IMG/VR virus record: IMGVR_UViG_3300050120_000012
Location: 7,813-71,812 of that record
DNA length: 64,000 nt
Origin: a virus
Reading direction: 5' to 3' (one strand)
This document shows, one piece after another, positions 3,426-15,010 of this stretch. How positions within the stretch are numbered: the stretch's first letter is position 1; each line of letters opens with the position of its first letter. The notes beneath the pieces were generated by a model, which saw only the letters and a list, made by a program, of their open reading frames with translations, was not told where the DNA came from and ran no database searches. The position numbers were made by a program, and so were the translations under genes.

Positions 3426-3953
3426 TTATTTTGGACCCGGACTAGACCGCTCTTTTTCGATCTCCGCGTGGTAGTCGTGCTTCTTCAAACGCCCCTTGGC
3501 CGCGTTGGATAGAAGCTGTGTGAAGCCGTAGTCGTGCAGCACCGGCTTGCCGTCGATCAATCCCCAATTCTTCAAGTCCATGTCCACGATCCACGACGGG
3601 ACCTTCAGCGGCATATCCTTGATCTCCATCGGCTTTGTCTTGTGCTGGATCAGCACCATGCCGTTGTCAGAGATGTATTCGCACGGCGCGATCCACTTGG
3701 CCGCTTCCGGCTTATCTTTGATCGCCTGCCATAGCTCCCATTCCATCACGTTCTGGAATGTGTGGACGTTGGTCTCAAACTTGAACACCCATCGCGGGTT
3801 TTGATTGCAGCTATAGACGTGACGCGAGATGCCATAGCCGATCTTGTCACCAATGATGAGATGACAGAAGTCCATCGATAGTCGGCCTGTGAAGTAGTCT
3901 TCGATTTCCACGATTCTATCCCCGTTGGCTATCGATGTCCGAATCGCCGTCAT
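3426..3953 (-). CDS. small protein-kinase-like (Ser/Thr kinase fold) protein
   Basis: IGYGISRHVY Gly-loop, VFK lysine, NVME helix-C Glu, DMDLKNWG catalytic loop, HDYG (DFG-like). Confidence 0.7.
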   Translation of the reverse strand: MTAIRTSIANGDRIVEIEDYFTGRLSMDFCHLIIGDKIGYGISRHVYSCNQNPRWVFKFETNVHTFQNVMEWELWQAIKDKPEAAKWIAPCEYISDNGMVLIQHKTKPMEIKDMPLKVPSWIVDMDLKNWGLIDGKPVLHDYGFTQLLSNAAKGRLKKHDYHAEIEKERSSPGPK

Positions 3954-4197
3954 CGTCTTCATCCTCTGGCGAACATTCGTCGCAATAGAGTTCGCCGTTC
4001 TTATCTTTGCCGAGATCGGATACGTCGGACCACCAGCTACAGCCGGTGCAGCAAAACACGCGATCATCCAACTCTTGACAAAATGTTATGTCATTCTCTT
4101 CTCCGTCTTCACAGACTTCGTGGATCGACTTGCACGTTCCGACTAGATCGTTGGCGACGACTTCGGCTCGCGCCTTCATCAATTCAGAGCTTGGCAT
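3916..4197 (-). CDS. hypothetical Zn-finger protein
   Basis: CTGC...CDEC motifs, acidic. Confidence 0.7.
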   Translation of the reverse strand: MPSSELMKARAEVVANDLVGTCKSIHEVCEDGEENDITFCQELDDRVFCCTGCSWWSDVSDLGKDKNGELYCDECSPEDEDDDGDSDIDSQRG

Positions 4198-4414
4198 TCT
4201 CACACTCCAGACTCACAGGCGGATGGACTTCGCCCAAGATGCGCAGATGGACATAACCACCGGCCAAGAGACAGGCGATCTCATCGTCAGATGGACGCCA
4301 GCGCGTCACCATGCACGGAATGCCGCCAAGGTCTTCATCGCGAATGTGGAGTGGCTTATAGCCCTGATCCAGCCCGACGCAGCGCGTGTGATTGGGGATA
4401 CGTTCTGAGTTCAT
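4184..4414 (-). CDS. conserved phage hypothetical protein
   Basis: WRPSDDEIACLLAGGYVHL...HPPVSL, a pattern I recognise from phage proteins; ATGA coupling. Confidence 0.7.
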   Translation of the reverse strand: MNSERIPNHTRCVGLDQGYKPLHIRDEDLGGIPCMVTRWRPSDDEIACLLAGGYVHLRILGEVHPPVSLECENAKL

Positions 4415-4875
4415 CTGGAGACTACCCATGTCCGCCGTGCGAGGCCACAGGGGCGTAGCTCATAGCGTTTGACGGCCTCCAGCTTATCATCGTCGAGCTT
4501 CACTTGCCAGCTATCGTACACCGGGTTCCACGGCTCTTGCCCTTGGTGCGTCACGGCGCTGGAGATCACGCGCCCACGCACGTCTCTATCGACGGTCATC
4601 CCCATGCCATCGATATAGAGGAAGATCACGACATCACCTTGGATCGGTGTGTGATTGGATTGACCATTCAGATCACCAATCATGTAGTCCATCGTGATCT
4701 GTTTGCCAGTCATGTCATCCACAGCCCACATAGGCTGATCTTCATATAGATGCTCTTCGTTCGACCCATCCCACATTTTCTCCCACTTGCGATGAGTGTA
4801 CCACAGGAAGCATGTGATAAGCAGACCGACGAAGTAGAAGACGATGATCTGTAGCCAGTGTGGGGTGTGTATCAT
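4411..4875 (-). CDS. membrane-anchored hypothetical protein
   Basis: N-terminal TM segment; ATGA overlaps at both ends. Confidence 0.7.
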   Translation of the reverse strand: MIHTPHWLQIIVFYFVGLLITCFLWYTHRKWEKMWDGSNEEHLYEDQPMWAVDDMTGKQITMDYMIGDLNGQSNHTPIQGDVVIFLYIDGMGMTVDRDVRGRVISSAVTHQGQEPWNPVYDSWQVKLDDDKLEAVKRYELRPCGLARRTWVVSR

Positions 4876-5225
4876 CGTGATCCTCTTTGATTGACGCTAA
4901 GAAACATCGCGTGCATTGGACCACCGTCCTGTGATATGCTTAGCGGGTATGTGGACGCTCTTTCCATATCCACATATGACTTCTCCCCATGACATCTTGT
5001 GCCAAATCCGACTTCGATGCACCGGAAGAATGGATTTTCTGTGCTATGGTCACAGATGATCGTTGGCTTGGTGTAATGCTGGTATTGGCTCCAGCGCCAT
5101 TCCTTTAGATTGTTGAACTTCCAACGTGTCCATGTCGCACGTTGAAAGCATGTGCCGGGGCTCTTGTGGTTCAGCCTGCGTTGCTTGCGCTTGGCGTTGT
5201 TATTAGACTTGCGGATGCTACCCAT
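4872..5225 (-). CDS. hypothetical basic protein
   Basis: ORF overlapping both neighbours. Confidence 0.6.
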   Translation of the reverse strand: MGSIRKSNNNAKRKQRRLNHKSPGTCFQRATWTRWKFNNLKEWRWSQYQHYTKPTIICDHSTENPFFRCIEVGFGTRCHGEKSYVDMERASTYPLSISQDGGPMHAMFLSVNQRGSR

Positions 5226-5430
5226 CGTTCTTCAAGTCCTTTAGGTATTTGATGACATCGGACGCTTCACCGATGCCGAGATTGTCGAACCACGCTTGGA
5301 CGGTGGTGTATGCCATGTCGAAGTGTGGAAGGTCTTCATGGTCACGGTTTGTCGCGAACGTCGATATACCACAGTCGATCATAAGACCGCGAATGTAGGA
5401 CAGTTGCTTGTCCGTTGCCATGATCGCCAT
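5218..5430 (-). CDS. hypothetical protein
   Basis: ATDKQLSYI...EASDVI pattern typical of small phage proteins. Confidence 0.7.
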   Translation of the reverse strand: MAIMATDKQLSYIRGLMIDCGISTFATNRDHEDLPHFDMAYTTVQAWFDNLGIGEASDVIKYLKDLKNDG

Positions 5431-6179
5431 TAGAAACTGAACCCATCATCGTCGGTTGCTGGAGCATCTTCTTCGAAGCCGAAGTCTGGCTCTAGCTCTT
5501 CGACATCATCTGGACCGAAGTCAGCATCGTCTTCAGCTTCTCCGCCGCCTCGCGCTTCCCGGTGTGTCTTGAGGTAGGCTGACAGATCACCGACAGAAAG
5601 CTCGCGAACGTCGGCGGCGAAGTCTCCAGCGGCGTCGGACGCCACAGTGAAATCAACGGATCGTTCCGGCCAATCCACAAGTTGGGGCGGGAGCTTGCCT
5701 GTGTATGGGGATGCAGCCCACTTGCGCCCGTCCGCATTCGCCCGAATACGGTCTCGGACATAGCTTTTGACGGATTCATCAAGGGGGAACTCCAACTGAA
5801 AGACGCTCATGAAGTTGATGACTGTATGCTCGGATGGAGCTTCGCGCAACTGGTGAGATCGTGCGGACGCAGCTTCGATCCATTCGATGGGCCAGATGTC
5901 CATGACCTGCCATAGCGGAAAGAAGTTGAAGGACTGCGCAGCAAGTTTGTCCACAACGTACATGCCAAGCTCAGTGATCGTGACGGACCCGTCATCGTCC
6001 ACGCCTTCGATGATCCCGGCCCATATCAGTTTGTAGGCATGGTTCAGATAGATCGGCGCAACTTGGCCGACATCACCGATGGAGTTCTCCAGCCATGAAC
6101 GCATAAACATGATCGACCGGCGATCCATGTACGCGGGATCATAAAGCATTGGCATCCAATCTCTCCATTGTATTTTCAC
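5430..6179 (-). CDS. hypothetical protein, possible wHTH, long acidic tail (EPDFG...DDDGFSF)
   Basis: Long ORF; probable GTG start overlapping the upstream stop; start uncertain. Confidence 0.7.
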   Translation of the reverse strand: MKIQWRDWMPMLYDPAYMDRRSIMFMRSWLENSIGDVGQVAPIYLNHAYKLIWAGIIEGVDDDGSVTITELGMYVVDKLAAQSFNFFPLWQVMDIWPIEWIEAASARSHQLREAPSEHTVINFMSVFQLEFPLDESVKSYVRDRIRANADGRKWAASPYTGKLPPQLVDWPERSVDFTVASDAAGDFAADVRELSVGDLSAYLKTHREARGGGEAEDDADFGPDDVEELEPDFGFEEDAPATDDDGFSF

Positions 6180-6484
6180 GACACACCGTTGTCGTATATC
6201 CACGTTGTGTTATCGCCGTCGATCCTGCCTAGCGCGAACGCAAACCAATCTTCGACGAAATCGTCACCGACTTCATATCGCTCGACGACGCAGACCATAT
6301 AGTTCGTCTTTTGCTCAGTCGAATCTTCGATCAGCATAGCAGTACCGATCTGTGTCACGACTGAGTTCAACTCATCTATGGTCATCTCTTCTGGAAATGA
6401 CACATAGAGTTCCTGTAGCAGTTCACCGTAATTCTCAAGCGACGGCGGGCTATCGAACATTGTGCTGATCGATAGCCTATTCAT
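6176..6484 (-). CDS. hypothetical acidic protein
   Basis: ORF from MNRLSIST overlapping the upstream gene. Confidence 0.6.
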   Translation of the reverse strand: MNRLSISTMFDSPPSLENYGELLQELYVSFPEEMTIDELNSVVTQIGTAMLIEDSTEQKTNYMVCVVERYEVGDDFVEDWFAFALGRIDGDNTTWIYDNGVS

Positions 6485-11087: not shown

Positions 11088-11575
11088 GAAGCGTGAATCC
11101 TGTGAAGAATGTATGCTTAGAGGGTATTTTATCCTCTGTCAAATGGGCTAAAACCTTGGGGACAAATCCGGCGGAGTTTCACACGGCATACATATTCGGT
11201 TTATGTCAGCATATACAGTATGCGAGCATATGCAATGTCCTACATATTTGGTATTATACTGTTTTGGGGTACATTTTCATCATTCATCTCAGCGCATCAA
11301 ATCAACTCACTTACAATGTGTACCTTTTAAGTGTGCTAACGGCCTAATTGAACACTCTTATCTACTAGATAAATAGATAAAAGGATAAAAACAGCCCTCG
11401 ATTTGATCGGAAATGGCCCTAATCGTCCATCTGCATGGGCTCTCCCTTGGCCGTTTCAGGAGCCAACCGTTGCAGATCGACTTTTCGGATCGGGTTTCAT
11501 TTTGAAGAGTGGAATCGCACTAAGGAATGGCTCAAAAGTGGATAAAAACAGCACAGGATGGACTGCGCAGCCTCA

Positions 11576-11802
11576 TTAACCTTAACGGACGATTAACCTT
11601 AATGCCATGTTAAGGTTGACGCTTCATTAGGGTTAAGGGTCGGTCGATAGACATGAACAACACGTTAAGGTTAATTCTGGATAAATCTTACGATGGTGTT
11701 AAGGTTGATGGATCATTAAGGTTAATTCTGGATAAAACCTAACGAGCGTTAACCTTGATGAAAATACACCTTAAGAAAGTTCGATTGTTAGTGACTTGTT
11801 AG
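11576..11802. promoter_or_regulatory. tandem array of CtrA-box-like sites (TTAA-N7-TTAA, 17 bp period)
   Basis: Perfect boxes at 11582-11596 and 11599-11613; degenerate boxes at 11616, 11654, 11671, 11688, 11705, 11722 and 11788. Confidence 0.7.
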
Positions 11803-11819
11803 GAAAGACGCTATAGATT
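11788..11819 (+). promoter_or_regulatory. putative promoter with a CtrA-like box at the -35 position and GCTATAGA -10 element
   Basis: TTAG-N7-TTAG at 11788-11802, then GCTATAGA at 11810-11817, similar to the Caulobacter sigma70 -10 element. Confidence 0.45.
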
Positions 11820-11853
11820 GACGCCATAGGGGAACGACGCCCGCCGCGATCTT

Positions 11854-11930
11854 TGACATTGTGAATCCCCGTCTCGCGCTATAAAGGCGCGACTGATGAG
11901 CCTCAGTTAAGGCGAAACGGGAATATGTCA
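11854..11930 (+). ncRNA. type III hammerhead ribozyme
   Basis: GUC cleavage triplet 11871-73; stem I 11874-80/11886-92; core CUGAUGA 11893-99; stem II GCCU/AGGC 11900-03/11910-13; GAAA 11914-17; stem III CCCGU/ACGGG 11868-72/11917-21. Confidence 0.88.
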
Positions 11931-12088
11931 TGTTCGGCAAAACTAACATGCAAACGAAAATGGCGACCTTCAATCAAAGGTCGCTGAATGTGTCGCCAGC
12001 GTGGAACGGCATTTATGAACTGCGCAACTATCGCCGCTCGCAATCGCTGGCGGGTCGCCTCGCGGCTCTTCTCGGAAAGGTCGCCTAA
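11930..12088 (+). CDS. small hypothetical protein (52 aa, MFGKTNMQTK...)
   Basis: Hand-translated; GGGA upstream; TAATG coupling to the next gene. Confidence 0.6.
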   Translation: MFGKTNMQTKMATFNQRSLNVSPAWNGIYELRNYRRSQSLAGRLAALLGKVA

Positions 12089-12279
12089 TGGCTCGCACCT
12101 TTCATCACGACATGATGGCGGCGCTAGACGCCGAAACCTACAGCGGTCGGACGACTCCCGACAAAACGCATTACGCCATGCGCCGCGCTCTTCGTAAGGC
12201 AAACATGCGCGGTTCTGCGATCATGAATGACAAACAACTCGCAATGGCTACCTTGGCCGAATTGGCGGAGTGGAAATAA
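12088..12279 (+). CDS. small hypothetical protein
   Basis: TAATG coupling at both ends. Confidence 0.7.
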   Translation: MARTFHHDMMAALDAETYSGRTTPDKTHYAMRRALRKANMRGSAIMNDKQLAMATLAELAEWK

Positions 12280-12743
12280 TGGGCTATTTCGGACGCGCTG
12301 GCGACGCTGGACGCCTTACCAAAGACGATATGACTCCGGTGAACGCGGTTAGCTCGCGCAAGGCTGGACATAATCGCATCACTTGGACAAATGATCGCGG
12401 CTTCAAGCATTTTCGCTTGATACAAACCGACGTTGTTTCGACTACGCCGGACGGTCAAGAAATCATGATCGATACGAACGGCTTTGATAGTCGCACGACT
12501 TCCACCGCGATCATGCAAGCCGTCGATTTGTTCTACTTCGGACGCATGAGCGTGGCTAATGGTTCGTGGTATATCGGCAATGTGTGGATGCGGTCTAAGA
12601 CGCGCGAAACAAACACGCTCTTATTGATCCGCTACAATGCCGGAACTGCGACCTATGAACGTGAGGAAATCGCGTTCGATGAAAAGATCGAAGTGAAGCG
12701 CGACCCGAAAACGGGCGATCTCACTTGGAAATCTGATCTCTAA
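12279..12743 (+). CDS. hypothetical protein
   Basis: ORF from MGYFGRAG with GGAG upstream. Confidence 0.75.
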   Translation: MGYFGRAGDAGRLTKDDMTPVNAVSSRKAGHNRITWTNDRGFKHFRLIQTDVVSTTPDGQEIMIDTNGFDSRTTSTAIMQAVDLFYFGRMSVANGSWYIGNVWMRSKTRETNTLLLIRYNAGTATYEREEIAFDEKIEVKRDPKTGDLTWKSDL

Positions 12744-12786
12744 ACTTAAACCGCGCGAGATAGCGCAAACCTGAAAGACTAAACAA

Positions 12787-13245
12787 ATGACCTATTACGT
12801 TTTCGACAATGGCGAAGCGATGGAAGCCAGCCATGAAATCAAAGACGCGAAAGCCGTTTCTAAAGCGGTCTATCTCAAGGCTCGCGCTGAATATGCCAAA
12901 AAGCGGCTTCTGACGATGATCTCGCCCAAAGACACGATTTATTGCGTCCTGAAGCATCGCGCGCCGTCCGGCATGTCGCGGAGTATCGAGTTCCTGATAA
13001 CGTGGTCTAAGGACGGCAAAACCGGCATACAGTCGATCACTCATTATATGGCTGATCTTGGCTGGAAATTCGATCAAACACACGGCGGTTTGAGGATCGG
13101 CGGTTGTGGGATGGATGCGGGTTTCGGCGCGGTCTATAGCTTGGGTCGCATCTTGTGGACGAACGGTACAGACAAGCCGCACGGCGTGCGCAATGGCGAA
13201 CCTGATAGCGATGGCGGTTACGCTATCGGTCATAGCTGGCTTTAA
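12787..13245 (+). CDS. conserved phage hypothetical protein
   Basis: DTIYCVLKH..PSGMSRSI...GGCGMDAGF..VYSLGR pattern. Confidence 0.8.
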   Translation: MTYYVFDNGEAMEASHEIKDAKAVSKAVYLKARAEYAKKRLLTMISPKDTIYCVLKHRAPSGMSRSIEFLITWSKDGKTGIQSITHYMADLGWKFDQTHGGLRIGGCGMDAGFGAVYSLGRILWTNGTDKPHGVRNGEPDSDGGYAIGHSWL

Positions 13246-13259
13246 TCGGAGTTCATGCA

Positions 13260-13670
13260 ATGACAATCAAAGACGAACTAATCAGCGCCGAAACCGCAAC
13301 GCAAATCCGCGCCAATGTTGACACGTTCAACGCTTGGCTTGGTGATCGCCGCTCATGGCGACCTGAAGAAGTTCCTTCGCATATCGTCCAAGTGACGAAC
13401 GATCAAAAAGGCGAACTAGAACGTTTTGAGACGTTCCGCGATATGCCGTCCAAGTTGTTCGTATATGTGAAGATATATGGTGCGAACGATGTAACTGCGA
13501 CCGTCTGGACTGGTCAACCGCTTGGACATGGCAAAGCGTCAACTGCATATCGCAGCAACTTCGGAGATCGTCGCCGCTCGATAACCATTACGATCAACGG
13601 CCAAAAGTACCACGGAACGGCATACGTTGACGCTGGCGACTATGCGCGATTAACGAAGTCCAAGCGATGA
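13260..13670 (+). CDS. conserved phage hypothetical protein
   Basis: GGAG RBS; TVWTG..LG...RSNFG..R...Y.G pattern. Confidence 0.75.
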   Translation: MTIKDELISAETATQIRANVDTFNAWLGDRRSWRPEEVPSHIVQVTNDQKGELERFETFRDMPSKLFVYVKIYGANDVTATVWTGQPLGHGKASTAYRSNFGDRRRSITITINGQKYHGTAYVDAGDYARLTKSKR

Positions 13671-13864
13671 GCGAACGCTTTAACAGGTGCGCAGCACGAA
13701 CAAGCGTCATCATCCATCATAATCAATCAACGGTTAAGCATCTTCGATGGCATGTGCTGATGCACAGACTAGACCATATGATCGTTAACGCATTTATACT
13801 GTCGTTAGTCTTTCATCATCACAGACACCATCAACACAACGGCCATTAGACAAGTAAAACGAAG

Positions 13865-13925
13865 TCAGTACCTCGCCCCTATGCTTTGAAGTTTGTGTAT
13901 AGGGGCGAGGATGACTGATTTATTA
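13865..13925 (+). terminator. strong hairpin closing the small-gene cassette
   Basis: CCTCGCCCCTAT (13871-82) pairs with ATAGGGGCGAGG (13899-910), with flanking TCAGT/ACTGA, followed by TTTATT. Confidence 0.5.
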
Positions 13926-14224
13926 CTGTCTCTTTCCCCCAGACCCCCGTTAACCATTTTGCTACGGCGGGTATCTCAACGGTCGCGCCGATCCAATTTC
14001 CCAAATAGTGCATCTCAACGTAGTCCATCGAAAAATGGATAAAAAAGTAGCCCAATACAGCGTTTTTATCCAGAAATCCTCAAATCAGAGCCCGATCAGA
14101 GGAAAACTCGATAAAAACGTCATCGGAGGCCACTTCCCCACTCAGCACACCATAAAATGCGACAAATCGGAAAATTCCAGAAAAATTCTGGAAAAGTGCA
14201 TCCCAACCGGCTATCTCATTAACC

Positions 14225-15010
14225 ATGGCGCTTGGACCCGCACAAAAAGCCGAACTGATCGACGCGATTTACGTCAAGCTAGGCGTTCCTGCGGCTGCGG
14301 AACACTGTCATCTGAAGCTCCGCGACGTTCTGACGGAGATGGATGACGATGAGGACTTCGGAGCCGCCGTAGAGCAAGCTATGGCTCACCTGACACCCTT
14401 GGCCGAACAAGAGCTATTCCGCCGGGCAGTCCATGGGACGGAGAATTACGTCGTCAATCAGGGCCGCGTGGTCTTCCTCACCAATTCAGACGGCATATCG
14501 AAGCCTCTGATAGAGAAGAAGTATAGCGATGGCCTCCTGACGAAGTTCCTAGAGGCACGCAAGAAAGACGTTTTTGGAGCCAAAGTCGAAGTTGCTCACA
14601 AGCATAGCGGCTTTATTGCCGTCCCGGTCATGTCCATGGAGGAAATCCAGAACATGCTCGACTCTCCGGGAGATGAAGTGACCTTTATCGACGCCAGCTA
14701 TCAAGAGATCGTCGGTCAACGCCCCTTGGCCGTTGCAGATGCCGATGTTGAGGCCGATTGGCCGCCTCAGAGCGCGGATAGCGAGCCTCGGGCCTCACAA
14801 GCTGTTATCCAAGAGCGTGTCCGCGCTCTGACGACGCCCCGGCAAGAGCCCGAACTGATCGACTTCGACCCTCGGGACGACGCCATGGAGTTCGTCATGG
14901 ATCGGCTGGAGGATGAGCCGGACTTTGAGTTCGTCACGGCTGAGATCGAAGACACCGCCGAAGAGCTTAAGACGTTCGACGATGACGATGAACCGGACTT
15001 CGGCGTCTAA
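14225..15010 (+). CDS. terS: terminase small subunit (putative) with long acidic C-terminal extension
   Basis: Directly before terL; E.ELFRRAV.G...KYSD.LL..FLEA pattern. Confidence 0.7.
   Translation: MALGPAQKAELIDAIYVKLGVPAAAEHCHLKLRDVLTEMDDDEDFGAAVEQAMAHLTPLAEQELFRRAVHGTENYVVNQGRVVFLTNSDGISKPLIEKKYSDGLLTKFLEARKKDVFGAKVEVAHKHSGFIAVPVMSMEEIQNMLDSPGDEVTFIDASYQEIVGQRPLAVADADVEADWPPQSADSEPRASQAVIQERVRALTTPRQEPELIDFDPRDDAMEFVMDRLEDEPDFEFVTAEIEDTAEELKTFDDDDEPDFGV

What the first reader, a model, noticed from the sequence alone, without database searches (positions are those of the whole stretch)
11576..13925. Candidate integrated module: CtrA array, promoter, self-cleaving leader and small-gene cassette
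Seen: the box array runs into a promoter-like element (box at the -35 position, GCTATAGA at 11810). The hammerhead follows about 40 nt later, then five small unknown genes (11930-13670) and a strong hairpin (13865-13918). The block sits between two non-coding regions at the strand switch just upstream of terS. Inference: this is a first-expressed, possibly terminal-repeat, cassette under two-layer control by host cell-cycle state (transcription) and a ribozyme (translation or stability). I do not know of a described phage system that combines the two.
Basis: inference. Interest (0 to 1): 0.8.

Follow-up and report, generated by a model that had tools for sequence, protein, structure and literature searches.

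The report
Phage CtrA-box region with hammerhead leader
A peat-metagenome phage carries the known kind of CtrA-box cluster ahead of a small-gene cassette, as its relative Brevundimonas phage Delta does, but it alone has a hammerhead ribozyme in the cassette's leader RNA.

Summary
The elements described are present. Eight TTAACCTTAA-type boxes lie at 11576-11758. A promoter-like site follows at 11791-11819. A complete type III hammerhead lies at 11866-11923 (44.6 bits, E 1.7e-6 for the whole window, 3.9 bits under Rfam's cut-off). Five small ORFs and a strong hairpin come next.

The array, cassette, hairpin and terS layout is not new. It matches Brevundimonas phage vB_BsubS-Delta: TerL 41% identical, TerS 40%, the same box types, an alignable leader and one shared cassette gene. 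For Delta, Mascolo et al. 2022 showed CtrA binding and regulation.

The hammerhead is the new part. It is absent from Delta and from both Delta-like contigs, which carry a non-catalytic branched leader at the same place. It is also absent from 27 of 27 other array-bearing viral records.

My best reading is host CtrA acting on the cassette promoter (sign unknown; repression in Delta). A constitutive hammerhead then cuts off the 5' arm that pairs with the ribosome-binding site and start region.

I found no support for a terminal repeat; the assembly closes into a 71,625-bp circle. This is a new variant of a known kind, of moderate interest.

The parts
11576..11758 (.). Array of eight TTAACCTTAA/TTAAGGTTAA-type 10-mers (CtrA-type TTAA half-sites on a +6/+11 lattice in two runs). 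It holds two exact TTAA-N7-TTAA sites at 11582-11596 and 11599-11613.
   Evidence: The same 10-mers fill the gap of Brevundimonas phage Delta.
11788..11802 (.). Degenerate TTAG-N7-TTAG site overlapping the putative -35.
   Evidence: Read. It has two mismatches to TTAA-N7-TTAA and was not tested further.
11791..11819 (+). Promoter-like site GTGACT-N17-TAGATT (GCTATAGA at 11810-11817). The inferred transcription start is near 11826.
   Evidence: Counterparts lie at the same relative place: Delta TTGACA-N16-TAGAAA, L021 TTGACT-N17-TAGAAC, L007 TTGACA-N16-TAAAAG. The generic scan did not list it. No RNA data exist.
11854..11859 (+). 5' arm UGACAU of the leader, inside the conserved TCTTTGACAT. It is predicted to pair with AUGUCA at 11924-11929, directly before the start codon.
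   Evidence: Folds. The sequence is conserved in Delta, L007 and L021.
11866..11923 (+). Type III hammerhead. Stem III pairs 11868-11872 with 11917-11921. Cleavage is expected after C11873. Stem I is 11874-11892, the CUGAUGA core 11893-11899, stem II 11900-11913 and GAAA 11914-11917.
   Evidence: 44.6 bits; E 1.7e-6 for the window. The descriptor scan also finds it. All core letters and the three core-adjacent pairs are present.
11919..11922 (+). Shine-Dalgarno-like GGGA, 7 nt before the ATG. G11919-G11921 are paired in stem III.
   Evidence: It aligns with Delta's GGGAG.
11930..12088 (+). ORF1, 52 aa, unknown. Its stop overlaps the ORF2 start (TAATG).
   Evidence: No Pfam or PHROG match.
12088..12279 (+). 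ORF2, 63 aa. It belongs to a small family shared with DELTA_5 and with genes in box-rich regions of other viral records.
12279..12743 (+). ORF3, 154 aa, an orphan.
   Evidence: only itself among 27 candidates.
12787..13245 (+). ORF4, 152 aa, phrog_12365 (function unknown). It belongs to a large family. A homologue lies in the terminal repeat of phiCbK-like Caulobacter phages.
13260..13670 (+). ORF5, 136 aa, unknown. A homologue (48% identity) lies in the cassette of Delta-like contig L007.
13862..13921 (+). Long GC-rich hairpin followed by UUAUUACUGUCUCUUU. It is a terminator-like end of the cassette unit.
   Evidence: Delta has a hairpin at the matching place after DELTA_8.
13671..14224 (.). 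Second non-coding gap, between the cassette and terS. It holds GGATAAAA/TTATCCA motifs and two AGTGCATCYCAAC repeats.

Best explanation
The window is a nearly whole genome of a siphophage from peat, 71.6 kb as assembled. [quoted passage not shown]

Most likely mechanism, all steps inferred:
1. The host response regulator CtrA occupies the eight boxes, whose last copy ends 32 nt upstream of the -35 hexamer. This couples transcription from the weak promoter at 11791-11819 to the host's CtrA state. The sign is open; it is repression at the array-proximal gene in Delta.
2. The roughly 105-nt leader folds so that its 5' part (UGACAU and CCCCGU) pairs with the region just before the start codon and with the GGG of the ribosome-binding site.
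3. That pairing is stem III of a type III hammerhead, which cuts after C11873.
4. Cutting turns the intramolecular mask into a short two-piece duplex that can fall apart. It leaves an mRNA that starts with a 5'-OH and two hairpins. ORF1 and the translationally coupled ORF2 and ORF3 can then be translated, independently of what lies upstream.

This works like the engineered RiboJ insulator. The ribozyme is taken to be constitutive. It is a lineage-specific addition to an older structured leader and does not form a co-evolved second half of a CtrA switch.
For: Array is real and local. TTAA occurs 75 times in the 71.8-kb record, and 15 of these fall in the 1 kb around the array.

Same kind as Delta:
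- TerL is 41% identical over 520 aligned columns. TerS is 40.6% identical and ORF2 is 39.6% identical to DELTA_5.
- Gene order is the same.
- The same TTAAGGTTAA/TTAACCTTAA boxes fill Delta's 1,312-bp gap.
- The leader aligns: window 11841-11894 against Delta 494-550, 70% identity, 32.6 bits. The best background match in 850 kb of other TerL-relative loci scored 24.0 bits.
- Mascolo 2022 (abstract and sections 18, 20 passages, 22, 23, 24, 28 read): EMSA shows CtrA binding to a probe from Delta's array. A reporter rises more than 4.5-fold in a ctrA-ts strain.

The same tandem boxes occur in 31 loci of 27 viral records. Thirty of the 31 loci have 50-67% GC, and they hold 2-9 boxes within 200 bp either side. 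Among 20 hits in 596 Gb of prokaryote genomes, the only two high-GC loci (67% GC) are in Xanthobacter, an alphaproteobacterium, and carry different spacers. The five box-rich hits that I printed are simple tandem repeats.

Hammerhead. All of CUGAUGA, GAAA and GUC are present, with standard pairs next to the core (alignment). My descriptor scan found hammerheads in 1.26 Mb only here and in the two contigs that Rfam also flagged.

Masking: the MFE and centroid folds pair 11854-11859 with 11924-11929, and the CCCC at 11867-11870 with GGGA at 11919-11922, which includes the G11919-G11921 pairs of stem III. Delta and L021 leaders fold with the matching UCCC(U) tract on their GGGA(G)/AGGGA.

A promoter-like site upstream of the ribozyme is present in 4 of 4 genomes.

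Precedents: hammerheads that flank or precede phage genes and cleave in vitro and in E. coli, and the HF1/HF2 hammerhead 13 nt before the first early gene, with a mapped 5' end near the cut (Perreault 2011, passages). RiboJ is a 5'-UTR hammerhead insulator, and that paper's kinetic model sets uncleaved mRNA to decay twice as fast, a value it takes from Clifton 2018 (passages of PMC7536230).
Against: - No RNA data. No listed sequencing run is RNA, so neither the transcription start nor cleavage has been seen.
- The hammerhead scores 3.9 bits below Rfam's gathering score. It exists as one sequence only: the pieces found in two other peat runs show no differences. Covariation therefore cannot be tested.
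- The host is unknown. At 55.6% GC the phage is well below the loci I fetched from Caulobacter phage CcrSwift and Brevundimonas phage Delta.
- No CtrA assay exists for this DNA.
- The conserved CC/GG between paired TTAA is more than the textbook TTAA-N7-TTAA requires, so another binder is possible.
- The promoter has a poor -35 (GTGACT), and the generic scan missed it.
- After the cut, 5 + 6 base pairs could still hold the 5' piece on the mRNA, especially at peat temperatures.
- The L007 leader does not show the same mask in its MFE fold.
- Fold z-scores for the leaders are modest: -1.7 to -2.4 here and -1.0 for Delta.
Confidence: 0.6

Rival explanations
1. The array, promoter, ribozyme and cassette form one evolved two-layer switch. 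Host cell-cycle state gates transcription, and a regulated ribozyme gates translation or stability of a first-expressed, perhaps terminally repeated, cassette.
For: All parts lie in order within 360 bp. Stem III and a distal helix cover the ribosome-binding site and the start region. Perreault 2011 raises regulated cleavage as a possibility for phage hammerheads.
Against: Array-bearing records without a hammerhead: 27 of 27 by RF00008, with no descriptor hit in their loci. Delta, L007 and L021 share the array, leader and cassette genes but lack the catalytic core. Hammerheads occur without arrays in two TerL relatives, G040 and G059. No ligand pocket or extra domain is visible, since stems I and II are plain short hairpins. 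The assembly is a circle, with no sign of a terminal repeat. In Delta, CtrA represses rather than switches on.
Confidence: 0.12
2. The boxes are not, or not only, CtrA promoter sites. They could be iterons or operator sites for a phage-encoded binder. Alternatively they are part of a replication origin in which CtrA-type and DnaA-type boxes are interleaved, as in the Caulobacter origin. The region would then time phage DNA replication more than cassette transcription.
For: The 10-mer is conserved beyond TTAA-N7-TTAA. DnaA-box-like TTATCCA occurs 12 times against 5.0 expected, with 5 copies in the two gaps and two inside the array at 11678 and 11729. GGATAAAA has 6 of its 7 copies in the gaps. 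The region has the lowest GC of the window, 44%. The tandem 10-mer pair is far commoner per base in viral contigs than in prokaryote genomes (31 loci against 20).
Against: Identical boxes recur in viral records that differ widely in size and GC, which fits a conserved host factor better than many different phage binders. The window's record encodes no OmpR-type DNA-binding domain (PF00486: 0 matches at E <= 1). CtrA binds the homologous Delta array. Delta-like arrays carry ATAAAAC but not TTATCCA. Mascolo 2022 found no positional skew for DnaA sites (passage).
Confidence: 0.15
3. The hammerhead match is a chance or decayed motif with no cleavage in vivo. The leader is simply a structured 5' UTR like that of Delta.
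For: It scores below Rfam's gathering score (44.6 against 48.5). There is a single sequence and no covariation. Its relatives manage with a non-catalytic junction at the same place.
Against: E is 1.7e-6 for the whole window against all 4,227 families, and it is the only match with E <= 0.1. Every core position and all three core-adjacent pairs are standard, which meets the acceptance rules quoted in Perreault 2011. The descriptor scan gave no unexpected hit in 1.26 Mb on both strands.
Confidence: 0.08

Closest known systems
[quoted passage not shown] 2022, PMC9437464)
   Same: Same gene order: leftward genes, box-rich gap, small-gene cassette, hairpin, gap, terS-terL-portal. Same TTAAGGTTAA/TTAACCTTAA boxes. 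TerL is 41% and TerS 40% identical. ORF2 matches DELTA_5. The leader aligns and the promoter-like site is in the same place.
   Different: Delta's gap is 1,312 bp with about 30 TTAA, and it has a small gene (DELTA_120) between the array and the cassette promoter. Here the last box ends 32 nt from the -35 and there is no such ORF. Delta's leader lacks the hammerhead core. The cassettes share only one gene. The host here is unknown.
Hammerhead ribozymes in phage and prophage intergenic regions, including the HF1/HF2 halovirus hammerhead before the first early gene (Perreault et al. 2011, PMC3088659)
   Same: A self-cleaving hammerhead a few nucleotides upstream of the first ORF of a multi-gene phage transcript. 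The proposed role is in trimming or separating mRNAs.
   Different: This one is a canonical type III with plain hairpins. It lies in an alphaproteobacterial-type phage next to a CtrA-box array, and its stem III is also the mask of the ribosome-binding site. It is a single copy and does not flank genes in tandem like the five type I copies in TerL relative G040.
RiboJ, the engineered 5'-UTR hammerhead insulator (described in PMC7536230; the original paper by Lou et al. 2012 is recalled, not read)
   Same: A hammerhead placed between promoter and ribosome-binding site. It removes the upstream leader and leaves the ribozyme body on the mRNA (for the description of RiboJ).
   Different: This is a natural element. 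It has no added 23-nt hairpin. Here the removed 5' piece is itself predicted to mask the ribosome-binding site and start region.
CtrA-site-rich direct terminal repeats of phiCbK-like Caulobacter phages
   Same: They hold small unknown genes behind TTAA-N7-TTAA sites. The ORF4 homologue CcrSwift_gp010 (57% identity over 81 aa) sits there, behind a terminator and a perfect TTAA-N7-TTAA.
   Different: Those are about 10-kb terminal repeats of 220-kb genomes, and CtrA activates the tested promoters. Here the assembly is circular and shows no repeat.

Membership tests
Hammerhead ribozyme, type III (Rfam RF00008) | Conserved core CUGANGA ... GAAA, and a cleavage triplet NUH | tested here: met
   CUGAUGA at 11893-11899, GAAA at 11914-11917, GUC at 11871-11873 (alignment).
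Hammerhead ribozyme, type III (Rfam RF00008) | Three stems with standard pairs next to the core; stems I and II closed and stem III open | tested here: met
   U11874-A11892, G11900-C11913 and U11872-A11917. Stem I has 6 bp, stem II 4 bp and stem III 5 bp.
Hammerhead ribozyme, type III (Rfam RF00008) | Score at or above Rfam's gathering cut-off | tested here: not met
   44.6 bits against 48.5. E is nevertheless 1.7e-6 for the window.
Hammerhead ribozyme, type III (Rfam RF00008) | Self-cleavage, and support for the stems by covariation | not testable with these tools
   Only one sequence is known. Contig pieces in two other peat runs show no differences. No RNA run is listed.
Phage CtrA-binding-site cluster (LPEG signature, Mascolo 2022) | Strongly skewed, intergenic concentration of TTAA-N7-TTAA sites in a gap between divergent modules or in a terminal repeat | tested here: met
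   2 of 2 exact sites and 7 of 11 one-mismatch sites lie within 155 bp of the 842-bp gap. 15 of the record's 75 TTAA lie in 1 kb.
Phage CtrA-binding-site cluster (LPEG signature, Mascolo 2022) | Homology or synteny with a member shown to bind CtrA | tested here: met
   Synteny, protein identities and box identity with vB_BsubS-Delta.
Phage CtrA-binding-site cluster (LPEG signature, Mascolo 2022) | A host that is an alphaproteobacterium with CtrA, and CtrA binding to the sites | not testable with these tools
   This is a metagenomic record from peat and no host is known. The host is inferred only from relatives and from the box type.
Intrinsic terminator | GC-rich hairpin directly followed by a run of U | tested here: inconclusive
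   The hairpin is strong (z -6.5), but the tail UUAUUACUGUCUCUUU is interrupted.
Direct terminal repeat cassette | The block lies inside a repeat at both genome ends, or shows double coverage | tested here: not met
   The record's last 30 nt recur at 158-187, an assembly overlap. A 71,655-nt contig of a public run closes on itself with a 30-nt overlap at 13712-13741. Contig data cannot show coverage steps or physical ends.

The most novel reading that the evidence does not exclude
A hammerhead arose, or was uniquely kept, inside an older branched leader that masks the ribosome-binding site and is shared with Delta-like phages. Translation of a CtrA-gated phage cassette would then require RNA self-cleavage. 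That would be a natural counterpart of the RiboJ insulator, and a rare case in which the biological job of a bacterial or phage hammerhead can be read from its context and tested against ribozyme-free orthologous leaders.
Probability: 0.3. Interest if true: 0.7.

Novelty: new variant of a known kind. Interest (0 to 1): 0.5.

Why it matters
The role of most genome-encoded hammerheads in bacteria and phages is still unknown (review PMC6765202, passages). Here the ribozyme's stem III is also the mask of a ribosome-binding site, and three related phages carry the same leader without the catalytic core. This gives a natural with-and-without comparison for asking what self-cleavage adds: unmasking of translation, mRNA stabilisation, or insulation from the upstream leader. 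The finding also extends the Delta-type CtrA-box architecture to a fourth, more distant genome from peat. In that genome the array abuts the cassette promoter directly, which makes a simpler test bed for the 'lytic deferment' idea. The cassette genes remain of unknown function, so the biological pay-off is still open.

Tried and rejected
Close relatives. Single-protein scans of viral contigs with TerS and ORF3 found none. The ORF3 search in the 5.8-billion-protein set found only itself. Of these only L007 and L021 had box arrays upstream (19 and 18 half-sites; every other stretch had 3 or fewer), so the rest look like chance. An ORF2-family scan gave 6 loci; L243 shares only ORF2.

TTGACA (11853)-N21-TATAAA (11880) as a promoter inside the ribozyme. 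I rejected this because the spacer is too long, and because the conserved TCTTTGACAT is better explained as an RNA arm.

Function of cassette proteins. Pfam gave no hit for the 5 ORFs. PHROGs hit only ORF4, in a family of unknown function. The ORF4 model has pLDDT 93.8 but no Foldseek PDB match with E <= 0.001, and the best VIA-align Z is 3.4. The Atlas look-up for ORF5 rested on a poor model (pLDDT 0.37) and gave nothing usable.

Expression. No RNA holder is listed. Contigs of three peat DNA runs were laid; they show presence and circular closure only. Parts without cover in X2 and X3 say nothing.

Host. No tRNA genes. No Trans_reg_C domain in the record. GANTC is at 175 observed against 273.5 expected, which I did not interpret. 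The tandem-box scan of prokaryote genomes gave mostly low-GC hits. The five box-rich ones that I printed are hexamer or 17-mer tandem repeats, so it gives only weak support for an alphaproteobacterial link, through two Xanthobacter loci.

Supplements of Mascolo 2022 (probe sequences, Figures S12/S13) were not seen. The exact position of the EMSA probe within Delta's array is therefore not known to me.


Full report
What the window is. The window is bases 7813-71812 of a 71,812-base IMG/VR virus record, called linear and 82% complete. The record's last 30 nt recur at 158-187. A 71,655-nt contig of a public peat DNA run covers the stretch and closes on itself with a 30-nt overlap at window 13712-13741. 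The assembled genome is therefore a circle of about 71,625 bp. Genes run leftward up to 11087 and rightward from 11930. TerS (phrog_4044), TerL and portal follow at 14225, 15010 and 16649. The nearest isolates by TerL are YuA-like siphophages, at 42-44% identity.

Checking the observation: the array. TTAACCTTRA with up to one mismatch gives 11 matches in 64 kb, and 8 of them lie at 11576-11758 (shuffles mean 2.94, largest 7). All 4 exact TTAANNTTAA sites and both exact TTAA-N7-TTAA sites are there. So are 7 of the 11 one-mismatch TTAA-N7-TTAA sites. The half-sites follow a +6/+11 lattice in two runs that are 4 bp out of register.

Checking the observation: the ribozyme and the block. A full-length match to Hammerhead_3 lies at 11866-11923. 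It scores 44.6 bits, 3.9 below the gathering score. E is 1.7e-6 for the whole window against all 4,227 families, and it is the only match with E <= 0.1. The core (CUGAUGA, GAAA, GUC) and the three core-adjacent pairs are all standard. A descriptor scan that I wrote for types I, II and III found it. In 1.26 Mb of other held sequence, that scan otherwise hit only the seven sites in two contigs that Rfam also flags. Five ORFs follow, the first three linked by TAATG overlaps. A long hairpin at about 13862-13921 folds far better than shuffles (z -6.5). The 'box at -35' is only TTAG-N7-TTAG at 11788-11802.

The array and cassette are a known architecture. Mascolo et al. [quoted passage not shown] CtrA shifts a probe from that gap, and a reporter for the array-proximal gene DELTA_120 rises more than 4.5-fold when CtrA is compromised, which means repression. 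In phiCbK and a Mesorhizobium phage, CtrA activates instead.

I fetched Delta (MN862068.1). Its order is leftward genes, gap, DELTA_1-8 (small genes), a hairpin, a 430-bp gap, then terS, terL and portal. TerL is 41% identical to the window's. TerS is 40% identical, and ORF2 is 40% identical to DELTA_5. Delta's gap is filled with the same TTAAGGTTAA/TTAACCTTAA 10-mers. Two IMG/VR contigs, L007 in G005 and L021 in G019, are Delta-like and share ORF2; L007 also shares ORF5 at 48% identity.

The same tandem pair, TTAACCTTAA-N7-TTAACCTTAA, occurs in 31 loci of 27 viral records. Thirty of the 31 loci have 50-67% GC, and they hold 2-9 boxes within 200 bp either side. In 596 Gb of prokaryote genomes it occurs 20 times. 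The five box-rich hits that I printed are hexamer or 17-mer tandem repeats, and the only high-GC sites are in two Xanthobacter genomes. The ORF4 homologue in phiCbK-like phages, CcrSwift_gp010, lies in the terminal repeat behind a terminator and a perfect TTAA-N7-TTAA.

The leader. The non-coding DNA before the first cassette gene aligns with Delta: window 11841-11894 against Delta 494-550, 70% identity, 32.6 bits. The best background match in 850 kb of other TerL-relative loci scored 24.0 bits. All four genomes share TCTTTGACAT-N5-ATCCC followed by a GC-rich hairpin. The window and Delta also share AAACGGGA before the ATG. Some 35-45 nt upstream, each genome has a sigma-70-like pair:
- Delta: TTGACA-N16-TAGAAA
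- L021: TTGACT-N17-TAGAAC
- L007: TTGACA-N16-TAAAAG
- window: GTGACT-N17-TAGATT at 11791-11819

I take this as the cassette promoter, which puts the transcription start near 11826, upstream of the ribozyme. This is inference; the generic scan did not list the site.

Folding from the inferred start (11824-11950) and of 11848-11935 pairs UGACAU (11854-11859) with AUGUCA (11924-11929). It also pairs the CCCC of the 5' arm with the GGGA of the ribosome-binding site. Delta and L021 fold with the matching UCCC(U) tract on their GGGA(G)/AGGGA, closing a multi-branch junction. L007 does not show this in its MFE fold. In the window the junction carries the hammerhead core. In the other three genomes it does not: no Rfam hit at E <= 1 in the Delta loci, none at E <= 0.01 in G005 and G019, and no descriptor hit.

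Do array and ribozyme travel together? They do not. RF00008 found nothing in 27 of 27 array-bearing records, and the descriptor scan found nothing in their loci. G040, which reads as low in GC, has five type I hammerheads, each about 20-35 nt before a small gene. G059 has two. In the stretch of G040 that I read there is no CtrA-type array. It does not refute that the two act in series in this one phage.

How it most likely works. Everything below is inferred; what is shown is sequence, homology and predicted folds.
- CtrA occupancy of the array, whose last box ends 32 nt from the -35, modulates a weak promoter.
- The leader masks the ribosome-binding site and start region with its own 5' part.
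- The hammerhead cuts after C11873, so the mask becomes a separate 49-nt piece held by 5 + 6 base pairs, which can leave.
- The mRNA then begins with a 5'-OH and two hairpins.

This is the logic of the engineered RiboJ insulator (passages of PMC7536230). It also resembles the HF1/HF2 halovirus case, where a hammerhead lies 13 nt before the first early gene (Perreault 2011, passages). Nothing suggests that the ribozyme is regulated.

Rivals. The boxes could serve a phage-encoded binder or a replication origin. DnaA-box-like TTATCCA occurs 12 times against 5.0 expected. Five copies lie in the two gaps and two inside the array. GGATAAAA has 6 of its 7 copies in the gaps. Against this, identical boxes recur across very different viral records, the window's record encodes no OmpR-type domain, and CtrA binds the homologous Delta array. 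The ribozyme could also be inactive, which only a cleavage assay can settle.

Novelty and score. The array, cassette and terminase layout and its link to CtrA are already in print. Hammerheads in phage leaders are in print too. What was not found in print is the combination, and the observation that the hammerhead sits in a leader whose relatives have a non-catalytic junction. The search for 'hammerhead' plus 'CtrA' gave 7 papers, none relevant by title and abstract start, and 'ribozyme' occurs 0 times in Mascolo 2022. I class this as a new variant of a known kind, with interest 0.5.

Noticed in passing
window 12787-13245 (ORF4): ORF4 belongs to a large family (1,157 proteins with E <= 0.001 among 1,174 candidates, all unnamed or 'hypothetical'; phrog_12365). 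Invariant residues include G106-C107-G108, D110 and H132, R135-N136-G137. The AlphaFold model is confident (pLDDT 93.8), but no PDB fold matched (no Foldseek hit with E <= 0.001; best VIA-align Z 3.4).
   Followed up: partly
window 13995-14019 and 14183-14207; L125 (Delta) 3460-3610: Repeats of the form A(A/T)AGTGCA..TC stand in the gap just before terS in both phages: two AGTGCATCYCAAC copies here and three AAAGTGC(A/G) copies in Delta. They are candidate TerS (pac) sites or late-promoter elements.
   Followed up: no
window 11127-11737 and 14036-14072: GGATAAAA/TTATCCA, a DnaA-box-like motif, is concentrated in the two gaps that flank the cassette. 6 of 7 GGATAAAA copies and 5 of 12 TTATCCA copies lie there, two of them interleaved with the CtrA-type boxes.
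   Followed up: partly
L121 (G040:C1:34000-40546) 4131-6258; L123 (G059) 3834-4925: A TerL relative that reads as low in GC carries five near-identical type I hammerheads, each about 20-35 nt upstream of a small gene on either side of a divergent region. A second relative carries two. In both, ribozymes separate the small genes from one another.
   Followed up: partly
window 13712-13741 and the record ends: The assembly is circular, at about 71,625 bp. The IMG/VR label 'linear, 82% complete' understates this: the record ends overlap by 187 nt with at least one mismatch.
   Followed up: partly
window 12169-12767: A low-depth 530-nt contig in run X1 matches 12169-12207 (6 differences) and 12744-12767 (1 difference), with 67 other letters in place of the 536 nt between. 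It may come from a co-occurring relative that lacks ORF3.
   Followed up: no
window 14219-14227: TTAACCATG: a CtrA-type half-site (TTAACCAT) overlaps the terS start codon. Further TTAACC copies lie at 13732 and 13950 in the second gap.
   Followed up: no
L258 7895-7921 and L266 883-909 (two Xanthobacter genomes): The same TTAACCTTAA-N7-TTAACCTTAA pair sits about 30 nt upstream of a conserved ORF start in two Xanthobacter chromosomes. This is a candidate host CtrA-controlled promoter of the same box type.
   Followed up: no
L007 1688-2053 (- strand); L125 165-422: Delta-like phages share a conserved small ORF (the likely DELTA_120) between the array and the cassette promoter. The window has no counterpart, so its array abuts the promoter directly.
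   Followed up: partly
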